IMG/VR virus record: IMGVR_UViG_3300050821_003463
Span: 30,544-94,543 of that record
Length of the DNA: 64,000 nucleotides
DNA from: a virus
Reading direction: 5' to 3' (one strand)
A program made the position numbers and the translations under genes. Below the pieces are notes generated by a model that did no database searches, had not been told where the DNA came from, and was given only the letters and a program-made list of their open reading frames with translations. This document shows positions 39,479 through 41,915 of this stretch, one piece after another (position 1 is the first letter of the stretch; every line of letters begins with the position of its first letter).

Positions 39479-39825
39479 CGAAATCTCCTGCCCTGGGTGA
39501 TCTTCGCCGTGCGTTTGAAATCCGCTGTGACCGGCACGGGGTTGACCAGAGCCTTGCGCGCGGCGATCAGGTCTAATTGAGTTTCGTCAATGTTGTGCGG
39601 ACCCCCGGGCTTGTGCCGTCGTACGTAATCTTGCAGCGTCCAATCTATCTTATCAGAGTCTATAGGTACCGGTAAGATTTCCACCGTGTGACATTGCTTA
39701 CAGCCTACTCGCATTCGGTCTGCATGCCAAGCAAATTGAATGTTGACGTCCAATCCCGCAGTCTTCATCCACTGGTGGAGATAACTCTGGATTGTCGTTT
39801 GCACATCCGCTTTGCTCACCGGCAT
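39475..39825 (-). CDS. Hypothetical protein with C-terminal GRRFR
   Basis: CKQCH; coupled ORF. Confidence 0.6.
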   Translation of the reverse strand: MPVSKADVQTTIQSYLHQWMKTAGLDVNIQFAWHADRMRVGCKQCHTVEILPVPIDSDKIDWTLQDYVRRHKPGGPHNIDETQLDLIAARKALVNPVPVTADFKRTAKITQGRRFR

Positions 39826-39991
39826 ACAGCCCCCTATAAAGTCTCAGTGATCGCTTTCACCGCCACGCCGAGCACCATCAGTATCAAGCCCCACTCGACA
39901 CAGCCCTTAGCCTGCCACGACAGTACCGCGAGCGTCATGCAGATCGCAGAACCAACCAGAGCCGAGATAAGAAAGCCCAGCGCGTAGAATT

Positions 39992-40762
39992 TCATGCGTC
40001 CTCCCGTCGAGCTAAAGTTTCAAAATACTCAGCGAGATCAAAGCGAGAGGTTCTCTGGATTTTACAGAAGCCGCAGGACTCTCCGACCGGATGAAGATGG
40101 TACGTGGAGCCAGCGGAGGGAATCGAACCCCCGACCTCGGGTTTACAAAACCCTTGCTCTGCCGTCTGAGCTACGCTGGCAGTTTTCCACACCTTATCTG
40201 GCGCGATGACATGATGCGACTCAGTCTTCGCCATCTTCGCTTCAATCTCTTCCAGTGACCAGGGCTCGAAGTCGTGACTGTCTACGCCAATATCAAAAGA
40301 GTGCCCGAGTTCTTCGATCTCCCCGTGCGAGTGTCCGTAGACGTGCCACGAACCCTTGTGCGAGTTCTGCCATACGCGCTGGGCGAAGTGAGAGATCACT
40401 ATCATATGTTTGTTGAACTTCACGCTGTGACTCGTGTTCTCTTTGTTAACTCCCCGAACCCACTCGAACTCTTTCTGCAGTGTAACGCGGCGCTCCATCA
40501 GCTCATCGTGATTGCCGTAGAGAAACGCATGTCTTCCGTTTAGACGATGAACGATGGATCGCGCTTCCATCTCACTCATTGTCTGCCAAAACATGTCCCC
40601 GGCGTGGATAGTCAGGTAGGATGGCTTATTGGGAACCTTCTTGTTGTGGCGCTCGATGATGATCTCTCTCATCTCCTCAGTCGAGGAGAACGGGCGATTG
40701 CAAAACTGAATGATGTTGTTGTGCCCGTAGTGCTCGTCACTGGTGATGAAGATTTCGCTCAT
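39992..40762 (-). CDS. Calcineurin-like metallophosphoesterase whose 3' part reads through a tRNA gene
   Basis: SDEHYGH, GD, GNHD, HF, GHSH, DIGVD. Confidence 0.9.
   Translation of the reverse strand: MSEIFITSDEHYGHNNIIQFCNRPFSSTEEMREIIIERHNKKVPNKPSYLTIHAGDMFWQTMSEMEARSIVHRLNGRHAFLYGNHDELMERRVTLQKEFEWVRGVNKENTSHSVKFNKHMIVISHFAQRVWQNSHKGSWHVYGHSHGEIEELGHSFDIGVDSHDFEPWSLEEIEAKMAKTESHHVIAPDKVWKTASVAQTAEQGFCKPEVGGSIPSAGSTYHLHPVGESCGFCKIQRTSRFDLAEYFETLARREDA
40105..40180 (-). tRNA. tRNA-Thr (anticodon TGT), CCA encoded
   Basis: GCCAGCG/CGCTGGC acceptor, GCTC/GAGC D-stem, TTTGTAA loop, TTCGATT T-loop, TCCA end; 76 nt. Confidence 0.92.
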
Positions 40763-41127
40763 TTTACTCTCGTTGCCTCCGATGAAGTGCCCTGTGTGTA
40801 CGTCAGAGGTGCCGTGTTTACCAGCACGAAAACTTTGCTTTCCAAAGTGACGACTTCGGGTATTTCCGGTACAGATGTCATCACAACCTTGACTCGCGCG
40901 AGAAACGTCTGGGAAATATGCCCGAATTTGGGTGTCTCGACCATGCGCGCGACGATGGAAAACATTTGAGATGGAACTCTCGTCTCATTCCAACGCAAAG
41001 CAGCAGGCGGGGGTGGCAGGAGAGTTCCGAGTTTTCGTTTGACTTCGCTTAGAGCGAACCTAGCCATTTCTTCAGGACTGGCGTCTTGGATGCGTGTCTT
41101 TCTCCGCGCCTTCTTCTTTATCGCCAT
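40759..41127 (-). CDS. Hypothetical protein
   Basis: AAGGAG RBS directly after the tmRNA coding piece. Confidence 0.55.
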   Translation of the reverse strand: MAIKKKARRKTRIQDASPEEMARFALSEVKRKLGTLLPPPPAALRWNETRVPSQMFSIVARMVETPKFGHISQTFLARVKVVMTSVPEIPEVVTLESKVFVLVNTAPLTYTQGTSSEATRVK

Positions 41128-41140
41128 GTCTTCTCCTTAA

Positions 41141-41340
41141 AACCAGAAATTAACGGGGACTTTCTGTTCCAAGGTCGTCCCCTGAACCCGCTGACGCGGC
41201 AGCTTTAGGCTGCGGCGGCAAATGCTTTCGGCTTTTCAGTCGTAGCAATTATTGTTTCTGTGTCCTGTTAACGGTAGCCACAGCAGCCCGACACGCAAGT
41301 TAAAACCCTGATGCGCCGCAATCGAAACCATGACGCCCCC
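41141..41340 (-). ncRNA. ssrA: tmRNA coding piece of a permuted ssrA; tag (A)ATTEKPKAFAAAA
   Basis: 5' GGGGGCG...TTCGA at 41340; ATAATT before resume codon GCT at 41246; tag ORF 41246-41205; downstream GGGGAC/GTCCCC pseudoknot. Confidence 0.9.
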
Positions 41341-41449
41341 ATCAAAGTCGCCCACTTGACGAATCGCGCTCTGCCGTATTCCGATGAGAGCAACGGGTCG
41401 TTTTCTCGTAGTGGTCAAACACACGCCCTTGCGCTTTCTTGGGCGACTT

Positions 41450-41510
41450 TGGTGGAGGCGGGGAGAGTCGAACTCCCGTCTTACAGCGTCAATGCTAACC
41501 TTCTACGTGT
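41450..41510 (-). ncRNA. ssrA: tmRNA acceptor piece of a permuted ssrA (5' extent uncertain)
   Basis: GAC-GGGAG-TTCGACT-CTCCC-CGCCTCC-A-CCA; pairs with GGGGGCG giving G3.U70; lies upstream of the 5' piece in the transcript. Confidence 0.9.
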
Positions 41511-41915
41511 GTTCTTGAAGAAGCGTTTCTCAAAGTCCCGCTTGCTCCTCAATTTCTCCTGCGTGTACCGTCCGTTTCGCGGAGTCACGCTTTTATATTC
41601 TTTGATTAGCATGCGAGCCCGTCTAACCTTTTCAGGCTCGCGCAGATATGGAAAAATCAAACCTAAAAATTTTATCGCCGCATCTCCGCTCAATGACCAA
41701 ACCCCGCTCGGAGAGTGACTCTTCTTAGAAGGTCGTTTCCCGCTTATACAGCCGCCAAAGCGGGTCCACATCCAACTCAACAAAGCTGGCGTGCAACTCG
41801 GAATTGAAACAGTCGGCGCTCGGTGTTCTCCCTTATGACGATGAGTCAGAGTCACCGTGCCCTCGCCATCGAAGAGTCCTGCTGCGTACGATAAGTCAAG
41901 AGAGTCATTTGTCAT
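41481..41915 (-). CDS. Single-motif LAGLIDADG homing endonuclease
   Basis: YAAGLFDGEGTV, FGG, IFPYLREPEK. Confidence 0.88.
   Translation of the reverse strand: MTNDSLDLSYAAGLFDGEGTVTLTHRHKGEHRAPTVSIPSCTPALLSWMWTRFGGCISGKRPSKKSHSPSGVWSLSGDAAIKFLGLIFPYLREPEKVRRARMLIKEYKSVTPRNGRYTQEKLRSKRDFEKRFFKNTRRRLALTL

What the first reader, a model, noticed from the sequence alone, without database searches (positions are those of the whole stretch)
39992..40762. Complete tRNA-Thr nested in-frame, same strand, inside the phosphoesterase ORF
Seen: the ORF has no stop before 40180 and reads through the whole tRNA (ASVAQTAEQGFCKPEVGGSIPSAGS) to a stop at 39992. Known: RNase P cuts at tRNA 5' ends, and non-stop mRNAs are tmRNA substrates. 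Inference: tRNA maturation would leave a non-stop phosphoesterase mRNA that the co-transcribed phage tmRNA could tag, coupling enzyme level to RNA processing.
Basis: partly seen in the sequence, partly recalled or inferred. Interest (0 to 1): 0.7.

Follow-up and report, generated by a model that had tools for sequence, protein, structure and literature searches.

The report
tRNA gene nested inside phage ORF
A working-looking threonine tRNA gene sits in frame inside a soil phage's phosphoesterase gene, and related phages keep both the tRNA shape and the open reading frame, so the same DNA seems to serve as tRNA and as protein code.

Summary
tRNA-Thr(UGU) at 40105-40180 (-) lies wholly inside the 256-codon ORF 39992-40762 (-), in the only frame that is open through it.

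It is not chance. All 10 distinct tRNA-Thr copies in related soil and peat phage contigs are read through by the upstream gene. They show 8 different junctions, two frame solutions and two different host genes. Only 4 of 30 other tRNAs lie in a comparable open stretch.

The tRNA is real: Rfam scores it 64.8 bits, 97.6% of cloverleaf cells pair, and 14 of 21 pairs show compensatory changes.

The frame after the tRNA is also under protein selection. A His/Cys knuckle follows the tRNA, substitutions fall mostly at third codon positions, and no start codon lies in between. So read-through translation looks real. The ORF stop overlaps the start of the next gene (ATGA).

It is not specifically supported, because the tmRNA is kept in 18 of 30 relatives without a nested tRNA. 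No RNA data exist.

The kind is published for selC inside selB (Mukai 2021). This scan has also noted nested tRNAs in other (marine) phages. I class it as a new variant of a known kind.

The parts
40181..40762 (-). Codons 1-194 of the ORF: the catalytic domain of a calcineurin-like metallophosphoesterase. Its ATG overlaps the stop of the upstream ORF (ATGA at 40759-40762).
   Evidence: phrog_547 phosphoesterase matches residues 1-187 at E 1.6e-38. 182 homologues were found, many named calcineurin-like phosphoesterase or carrying PF00149. The metal-site motifs are invariant. AF2 pLDDT is 95-99 over residues 1-180 and about 85 over 181-190. The best Foldseek match is 1xm7.
40105..40180 (-). tRNA-Thr(UGU), 76 nt with encoded CCA. 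It is read in frame as residues 195-219, and its last A is the first base of codon 220.
   Evidence: ARAGORN. Rfam gives 64.8 bits. In the cloverleaf 97.6% of cells pair and 14 of 21 pairs show compensatory changes across 10 copies. AF2 pLDDT is about 50-66, so the peptide looks like a linker.
40064..40105 (-). Residues 220-233: a small His/Cys knuckle (T-Y-H-x-H-x5-C-G-F-C), a likely metal-binding module.
   Evidence: The same module ends the phosphoesterase in 21 of 120 relatives, with or without a tRNA. The second ligand swaps between H and C. Substitutions by codon position are 26:10:46 and 14:24:57. No in-frame start codon lies between the tRNA and the module.
39992..40063 (-). Residues 234-256 and the TGA stop. 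This tail ends on the ribosome-binding site (GGGAGGA, 39999-40005) and the ATG of the next gene. Stop and start overlap as ATGA (39992-39995).
   Evidence: Sequence. The same overlap is seen in most relatives. The closest tRNA-less relative, L010, ends on the same site 58 codons earlier.
39834..39995 (-). Downstream gene: a conserved small membrane protein of 53 aa. Its start overlaps the stop of the tRNA-bearing ORF.
   Evidence: Homologous small hydrophobic proteins follow the phosphoesterase in L001, L002, L010, L016, L018, L021 and L044.
41114..41542 (-). Phage-encoded permuted (two-piece) tmRNA on the same strand, about 350-900 nt upstream. Its tag ends ...AFAAAA.
   Evidence: ARAGORN. 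Rfam RF04321 gives 75.5 bits at 41205-41510. It is conserved upstream of the phosphoesterase in at least 21 distinct loci.
40759..41127 (-). ORF of 122 aa with no known family, lying between the tmRNA and the phosphoesterase. It belongs to the same tightly packed gene run.
   Evidence: It has no Pfam or PHROG match.

Best explanation
A functional tRNA-Thr(UGU) gene is nested in frame in the variable C-terminal tail of a phage metallophosphoesterase gene. The stretch is used in two ways. Ribosomes read through the tRNA sequence as a floppy 25-residue linker. [quoted passage not shown] Transcripts or transcript copies that are free of ribosomes fold the cloverleaf and are cut by host RNase P and 3'-end nucleases. 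This releases tRNA-Thr and leaves a stop-less 5' fragment that any ribosome-rescue system, including the phage tmRNA, would clear. Shown here: the tRNA is under RNA-level selection, the frame is kept open through many rearrangements, and the sequence after the tRNA is under protein-level selection. Inferred: co-transcription, the cut, the competition between translation and folding, and the rescue.
For: The tRNA is real. Only one of the three frames through it is open, and the ORF uses that frame. All 10 distinct tRNA-Thr loci are read through, with 8 different upstream junctions. There are two frame solutions: the 76-nt type joins at offset 0, and the 75-nt type in L044 and L048 joins one base earlier. 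Twelve of 120 phosphoesterase relatives carry a tRNA-coded peptide in frame, including two that by back-reading look like tRNA-Ala. On a tree of the catalytic domain the nested state needs at least 9 changes, all of them frame-preserving. The near-isogenic pairs L046/L048 and L010/WIN differ by in-frame indels of 32 and 58 codons. Coding selection after the tRNA: substitutions in the knuckle fall mainly at third positions, and the L084/L087 tails differ by 7 synonymous and 2 non-synonymous codons. A second, unrelated gene family abuts the tRNA without a stop. Eleven of its 13 representatives, each under 50% identical to the others, read through tRNA-Thr, and many also read through tRNA-Trp. 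Conserved protein modules lie between the two tRNAs. The ORF stop overlaps the next start in most loci. The four other tRNAs of the same phage are ordinary intergenic genes.
Against: There are no RNA or protein data: no RNA run holds the sequence. AF2 gives the knuckle only pLDDT 50-75. The loci are related, so the counts overstate independence. DNA could not be fetched for most protein-only examples, so their tRNAs are inferred from peptides. The downstream extension lengths alone (9-36 codons) are what chance would give. Only the codon-position pattern and the conserved modules argue for translation.
Confidence: 0.62

Rival explanations
1. The purpose of the nesting is to make the phosphoesterase mRNA stop-less once the tRNA is cut out, so that the co-transcribed phage tmRNA tags the enzyme. 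Enzyme level is thereby tied to tRNA processing or rescue capacity, in the manner of arfA.
For: The catalytic domain ends within a few residues of the tRNA 5' end, close to where tRNA-less relatives stop. The tmRNA lies on the same strand within 1 kb, with no promoter-like or terminator-like site called between them. arfA shows that such a circuit exists. Mukai proposed the same for selB/selC. The window's tag ends in ...AAAA, which could act as a degron.
Against: The tmRNA is kept in 18 of 30 relatives without a nested tRNA. The frame and a conserved module after the tRNA are under protein selection, which this model does not need. In the closest nested relative, L001, and many others the predicted tag ends ...AAAAGR, which is not a typical C-terminal Ala-Ala degron. 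The phage encodes no SmpB or ArfB-type factor.
Confidence: 0.15
2. Compaction without interplay. The tRNA is made mainly from its own or other transcripts, and the nested position is only a tolerated in-frame insertion into a floppy tail at a recombination hot spot. It is kept in frame solely because the knuckle and the coupled downstream start must still be translated.
For: The tail is a mosaic of short modules that come and go. The tRNA-coded peptide is predicted to be disordered. The nested state was gained or lost at least 9 times. No functional link between a phosphoesterase and tRNA-Thr is known.
Against: No promoter-like site was found inside the phosphoesterase gene, though this is weak evidence from a sigma-70 consensus scan. 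Any transcript that carries a folded cloverleaf is an RNase P substrate, so some interplay is hard to avoid. The arrangement recurs with two host genes and three tRNA types.
Confidence: 0.15
3. A run-on by chance, or a pseudo-tRNA. The ORF extension is meaningless, or the tRNA-like stretch is now only coding sequence.
For: A single case has a 1 in 3 chance of being in the open frame. Annotation pipelines usually treat overlaps between a CDS and a tRNA as errors.
Against: Compensatory changes in 14 of 21 stem pairs and an encoded CCA show a living tRNA. Ten of 10 loci, two frame solutions, a second gene family and coding selection downstream exclude chance.
Confidence: 0.04

Closest known systems
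selC (tRNA-Sec) nested inside the selB ORF of Alphaproteobacteria (Mukai 2021, Int J Mol Sci 22:4605, PMC8124441; read)
   Same: A whole tRNA lies on the same strand inside an ORF and is translated as a C-terminal extension. [quoted passage not shown] Relatives have remnants or no tRNA. The proposed outcome is that tRNA processing leaves a stop-less mRNA, so protein and tRNA are alternatives. That case too rests on bioinformatics only.
   Different: This case is in a phage, with ordinary elongator tRNAs (Thr, plus Trp and probably Ala in relatives). The host enzyme has no known tie to that tRNA. A conserved protein module lies after the tRNA, which gives direct comparative evidence for read-through. 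In relatives there are two host genes and up to two tRNAs in one ORF. A phage tmRNA lies in the same gene run.
arfA of Escherichia coli: a stop-less mRNA made by RNase III and controlled by tmRNA (review PMC3989581)
   Same: An endonuclease cut inside an ORF yields a stop-less mRNA whose product is tagged by tmRNA. Protein level therefore reports rescue capacity.
   Different: In arfA the truncated product is the active form and the full-length form is unstable. Here the full-length form carries a conserved module. The cutter here would be RNase P acting at a tRNA, not RNase III acting at a hairpin. Nothing has been shown experimentally for this locus.
Mitochondrial tRNA punctuation, and tRNAs fully integrated in mRNAs of the isopod Armadillidium vulgare (Doublet 2015, as cited in PMC11571959)
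   Same: tRNAs inside long transcripts define mRNA ends. A tRNA and an mRNA share the same bases, so one transcript gives one or the other.
   Different: Those are organelle systems. In punctuation the stop codons are completed by polyadenylation. Here the codon before the tRNA is ACT, and added A residues make no stop.
Ordinary phage tRNA genes (for example in Sinorhizobium phage ort11, Haloarcula tailed virus 2 and an IMG/VR tRNA cluster)
   Same: The tRNA-Thr sequence is closely similar (77-83% identity). The likely role is supply of a tRNA for codons that the host reads poorly.
   Different: Those tRNA-Thr genes are intergenic or overlap a small CDS by about 10 nt. The same is true of the four other tRNAs of this phage.

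Membership tests
tRNA (Rfam RF00005), isoacceptor Thr(UGU) | Score above the curated threshold, with a cloverleaf of 7/4/5/5-bp stems | tested here: met
   64.8 bits against a gathering score of 29. ARAGORN call. 97.6% of stem cells pair across 10 copies.
tRNA (Rfam RF00005), isoacceptor Thr(UGU) | Selection on the structure (compensatory changes) | tested here: met
   14 of 21 pairs change on both sides. 0 of 500 shuffles reach the observed score, and the slid controls pair at only 39-50%.
tRNA (Rfam RF00005), isoacceptor Thr(UGU) | Expression, 5'/3' processing and charging with Thr | not testable with these tools
   No RNA run holds the sequence.
Calcineurin-like metallophosphoesterase (PF00149 / phrog_547) | Profile match and conserved metal-binding motifs (D-x-H, G-D, G-N-H-D/E, H, G-H-x-H) | tested here: met
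   phrog_547 at E 1.6e-38. D9, H11, G55, D56, G83, N84, H85, H125, G143, H144 and H146 are invariant or nearly invariant. The fold matches 1xm7 and the Mre11/YfcE class. One caveat: Pfam-A itself gave no hit at E 0.01 for this protein, although many relatives carry a precomputed PF00149.
Nested tRNA-in-ORF of the selB-selC kind (Mukai 2021) | An entire tRNA on the same strand inside an ORF, conserved among relatives | tested here: met
Nested tRNA-in-ORF of the selB-selC kind (Mukai 2021) | [quoted passage not shown] | tested here: met
   ATGA at 39992-39995. The same overlap is seen in most relatives.
Nested tRNA-in-ORF of the selB-selC kind (Mukai 2021) | The host protein works with the nested tRNA (SelB binds tRNA-Sec) | tested here: not met
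   The host genes are a phosphoesterase and an unrelated small protein, and the tRNAs are Thr, Trp and probably Ala. No functional tie is evident.
arfA-type control by a cut-made stop-less mRNA and tmRNA | The truncated product is the functional form and the full-length form is dispensable or unstable | tested here: inconclusive
   The truncated product would hold the whole catalytic domain. Yet the part after the tRNA is under protein selection.
arfA-type control by a cut-made stop-less mRNA and tmRNA | Cleavage and tmRNA tagging actually occur | not testable with these tools
   No RNA or protein data exist.
Mitochondrial-type tRNA punctuation | The stop codon is completed by adding A after the tRNA is excised | tested here: not met
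   The last codon before the tRNA is ACT. Relatives end in AAC, GAT, GAA, TTG or AAA. Only L048 would gain a stop (T plus AA).

The most novel reading that the evidence does not exclude
In this clade of soil phages, nesting tRNAs inside translated ORFs is a designed switch. Ribosome traffic over the tRNA decides whether a transcript copy yields protein and couples translation to the next gene, or folds and is harvested as tRNA. The phage carries its own tmRNA, in many relatives with a tag that does not look like a degron, to free ribosomes from the stop-less fragments that this harvesting makes. That would be a virus-encoded pairing of programmed mRNA cutting with dedicated ribosome rescue.
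Probability: 0.18. Interest if true: 0.85.

Novelty: new variant of a known kind. Interest (0 to 1): 0.62.

Why it matters
Annotation pipelines treat a coding sequence that overlaps a tRNA as an error and trim it, so arrangements like this one are systematically hidden. At this locus comparative data show selection on the same bases both as tRNA and as readable code, and selection on a protein module that can only be reached by translating through the tRNA. That is stronger evidence for real dual use than exists for the one published bacterial case, selB/selC. If the two fates compete, it is a simple way to share one transcript between protein and tRNA output, and it would produce stop-less mRNAs by design. 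That gives phage-borne tmRNAs, whose role is still unclear, a concrete and testable job. The locus is small enough (about 1.7 kb, from the tmRNA to the small membrane protein gene) to be tested in a laboratory host.

Tried and rejected
DNA for the protein-only examples (P0004, P0007, P0009, P0014, P0015, P0017, P0043, P0066, P0096, P0124-P0133) could not be fetched, so their tRNAs are inferred from the coded peptides.
- **No RNA holder listed.** The run search found only two soil DNA runs. Laying them gave contigs only, which say nothing on expression, ends or strand.
- **Few relatives in IMG/VR.** Scans found only 6 relatives of the phosphoesterase, none of the second gene family, and one unrelated tRNA cluster by a DNA pattern.
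- **Word-based searches gave little.** The word search for the second family returned only the query itself. The search for longer fused forms of the phosphoesterase found none, which is weak evidence.
- **Pfam was silent.** It gave no hit for the window protein at E 0.01.
- **Ribosomal bypassing rejected.** The codons flanking the tRNA do not match (ACT/ACG in the window, AAC/ACT in L001), and removing 76 nt would shift the frame.
- **Excision and religation rejected** for the same frame reason.
- **Attachment-site remnant rejected.** The tRNA is complete and co-varies. The 'AGS' before the knuckle in tRNA-less relatives varies at synonymous sites, so it is conserved as protein and not as DNA. 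Only L046 keeps about 13 nt that resemble the tRNA 3' end.
- **tRNA-dependent lysogeny** (PMC10865867) is not relevant here.
- **Literature searches** for phage cases found none. The selB/selC paper came as a lead from earlier notes of this scan, and I read it myself.
- **The promoter and terminator scan** showed nothing above shuffled expectation.

Full report
**1. The observation**

ARAGORN finds two RNA genes in the window, both on the minus strand: tRNA-Thr(tgt) at 40105-40180 and a permuted tmRNA at 41114-41542. Rfam confirms both, the tRNA with 64.8 bits and the permuted tmRNA with 75.5 bits.

The ORF 39992-40762 (-) is 256 codons long. Residues 195-219 are the tRNA read in frame. The other two frames through the tRNA hit a stop: TAG in the D stem, and TAA after the anticodon. 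A Logan contig of the source run is identical over 39800-41600, so this is not an assembly slip of one program.

**2. The host gene**

Residues 1-187 match PHROG 547, phosphoesterase, at E 1.6e-38. Relatives are named calcineurin-like phosphoesterase, and the metal-site residues are invariant. The AlphaFold model is confident for residues 1-190 (pLDDT 95-99 to residue 180, about 85 for 181-190). It is poor (about 50-66) for the tRNA-coded stretch and 50-75 for the tail. The best structural match is 1xm7, followed by Mre11/YfcE-type enzymes.

The phage genome is 94.5 kb with 54.7% G+C. The source is a soil metagenome, and relatives come from soil and peat metagenomes. The nearest cultured relative of the enzyme (38% identity) is the 97.6-kb podovirus Tunturi_3 of an acidobacterium, so an acidobacterial host is a weak guess.

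**3. Relatives**

The 120 listed homologues range from 135 to 308 aa. The catalytic domain is constant and the tail varies.

- Twelve homologues carry a tRNA-coded peptide in frame: eight by pattern and four by eye. Two of the four back-read as tRNA-Ala(UGC).
- I fetched 88 loci and ran ARAGORN on them.
- Every locus with a tRNA-Thr downstream of the enzyme has that tRNA inside an ORF. That is 10 distinct sequences: the window, L001, L021, L022, L043, L044, L048, L020, L084 and L087.
- None has a stop before or inside the tRNA.
- The junctions differ (8 kinds).
- The 75-nt tRNA type of L044 and L048 would carry a stop in the frame used by the 76-nt type. There the upstream ORF joins one base earlier, so the frame is again the open one.
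- Controls: 4 of 26 other tRNAs in these loci lie in an open stretch of 59 or more upstream codons, one of them the nested tRNA-Trp of L020. None of the four other tRNAs of the phage's own genome does.
- tRNA-Thr genes of unrelated phages are intergenic.

**4. The tRNA is alive**

Across the 10 copies, 97.6% of cloverleaf cells pair. Fourteen of 21 pairs change on both sides, no shuffle reaches these values, and the slid controls pair at 39-50%. All copies encode CCA.

**5. The frame after the tRNA is translated**

Directly after the tRNA, the window, L001, L048 and P0014 carry a small knuckle with four His/Cys ligands. It has the form H-x-H...C-G-F-C, or H...C-x-C-G-F/W-C in other relatives.

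- The same module ends the enzyme in 21 of 120 relatives, most of them without a tRNA.
- Substitutions between copies fall mainly at third codon positions (26:10:46 and 14:24:57). Glycine and cysteine codons vary synonymously.
- No in-frame start codon lies between the tRNA and the module. The module can therefore only be made by reading through the tRNA.
- In L084 and L087 the ten codons after the tRNA differ by 7 synonymous and 2 non-synonymous changes.
- The pairs L046/L048 and L010/window differ by in-frame indels of 32 and 58 codons that hold the tRNA.
- On a FastTree of the catalytic domain, the nested state (16 of 127 rows) needs at least 9 changes.

**6. A second host gene**

In L020, L084 and L087 the phosphoesterase has its own stop. 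A different small gene, ending ...KFAEEAVEEYK, runs into the tRNA without a stop. In L020 one ORF of 232 codons reads through tRNA-Thr and tRNA-Trp.

A profile of this small gene found 13 strong representatives, each under 50% identical to the others. Eleven carry the tRNA-Thr peptide in frame. Several are 220-295 aa long with a second, Trp-type tRNA peptide and with conserved Cys-rich protein modules between the two tRNAs. One of them (P0127) has a tRNA peptide identical to the window's. Some modules are shared with phosphoesterase tails. So in this clade tRNAs are in-frame modules of translated ORFs.

**7. Where the ORF ends**

In the window and most relatives the ORF stop overlaps the ATG of a conserved small membrane protein (ATGA), and that gene's ribosome-binding site lies inside the ORF's last codons. 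The closest relative without a tRNA, L010, ends on the same site. This is the layout expected for translational coupling, and it is the same layout Mukai described for selB/selC.

**8. The tmRNA idea**

The tmRNA lies upstream on the same strand in all 3 nested loci with enough flank. It also lies there in 18 of 30 loci without a nested tRNA, and in 9 of 10 of those at 55% identity or more. Tags fall into two classes...AAAA (the window) and ...AAAAGR (L001 and many others). The phage has no SmpB and no RF-1-domain rescue factor.

A stop-less fragment is a necessary by-product if the tRNA is cut from this transcript, and arfA shows that such fragments can be regulatory. Nothing here ties the tmRNA to the nesting, however, and the conserved downstream module argues that the long protein is wanted.

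**9. Verdict**

- The best reading is dual use of one stretch, as tRNA and as a translated linker, with a stop-less by-product.
- The kind is published for bacteria (selC in selB), and earlier notes of this scan report nested tRNAs in marine phages. This is therefore a new variant, not a new kind.
- What is new here: a soil-phage clade, two host genes, up to two tRNAs per ORF, direct comparative evidence for read-through, and a phage tmRNA in the same gene run.
- No experiment or RNA data bear on it yet.

Noticed in passing
L020:4725-5423 (also the proteins P0123-P0133): A second ORF family begins M-T-K-A-E-R-W and ends ...D-N-L-W-G-V. It reads in frame through tRNA-Thr and a tRNA-Trp, with conserved Cys-rich protein modules between the two. 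Eleven of 13 representatives carry at least one tRNA peptide.
   Followed up: partly
window 41205-41250; L001, L005, L010, L021, L033 tag regions: The phage tmRNA tags fall into two classes, ending ...AFAAAA or ...AAAAGR (a few end ...AAHA or ...AAYA). The GR-ended tags do not look like the usual C-terminal Ala-Ala degron.
   Followed up: partly
window 41481-41915 (-): A homing-endonuclease-like ORF (phrog_5046, named HNH; it carries a LAGLIDADG-like motif) runs about 30-60 nt into the 5' part of the tmRNA. This is another ORF/RNA-gene overlap in the same gene run.
   Followed up: no
phosphoesterase tails of P0004-P0117; L001:4577-4783: The enzyme's C-terminal tail is a mosaic of short portable peptide modules that come and go between relatives. 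Examples are C-P-x-C-G...C-L-D-C-L-R-V-E-R, K-P-I-x-G-x-D-G-K-T, C-D-C-F-S-M-G-x-H-N-C-P-x-H and F-D-H-L-P-E-G-S-H.
   Followed up: partly
L089:6827-7165 (Tunturiibacter phage Tunturi_3): The nearest cultured relative carries a small RF-1-domain (ArfB-like) gene about 2.7 kb from its phosphoesterase. So ribosome rescue appears in another form in a related phage.
   Followed up: no
own genome C1:20585-27727 (outside the window): The phage has four more tRNAs, Tyr(GUA), Ile(UAU), Asn(GUU) and Ala(UGC). All are ordinary intergenic genes. ACA is the rarest Thr codon of the phage (16%).
   Followed up: yes
L046:3690-3715 versus L048:2063-2137: A near-isogenic pair, one with and one without the tRNA. 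The tRNA-less one keeps about 13 nt that resemble the tRNA 3' end, which suggests loss by an in-frame deletion.
   Followed up: partly
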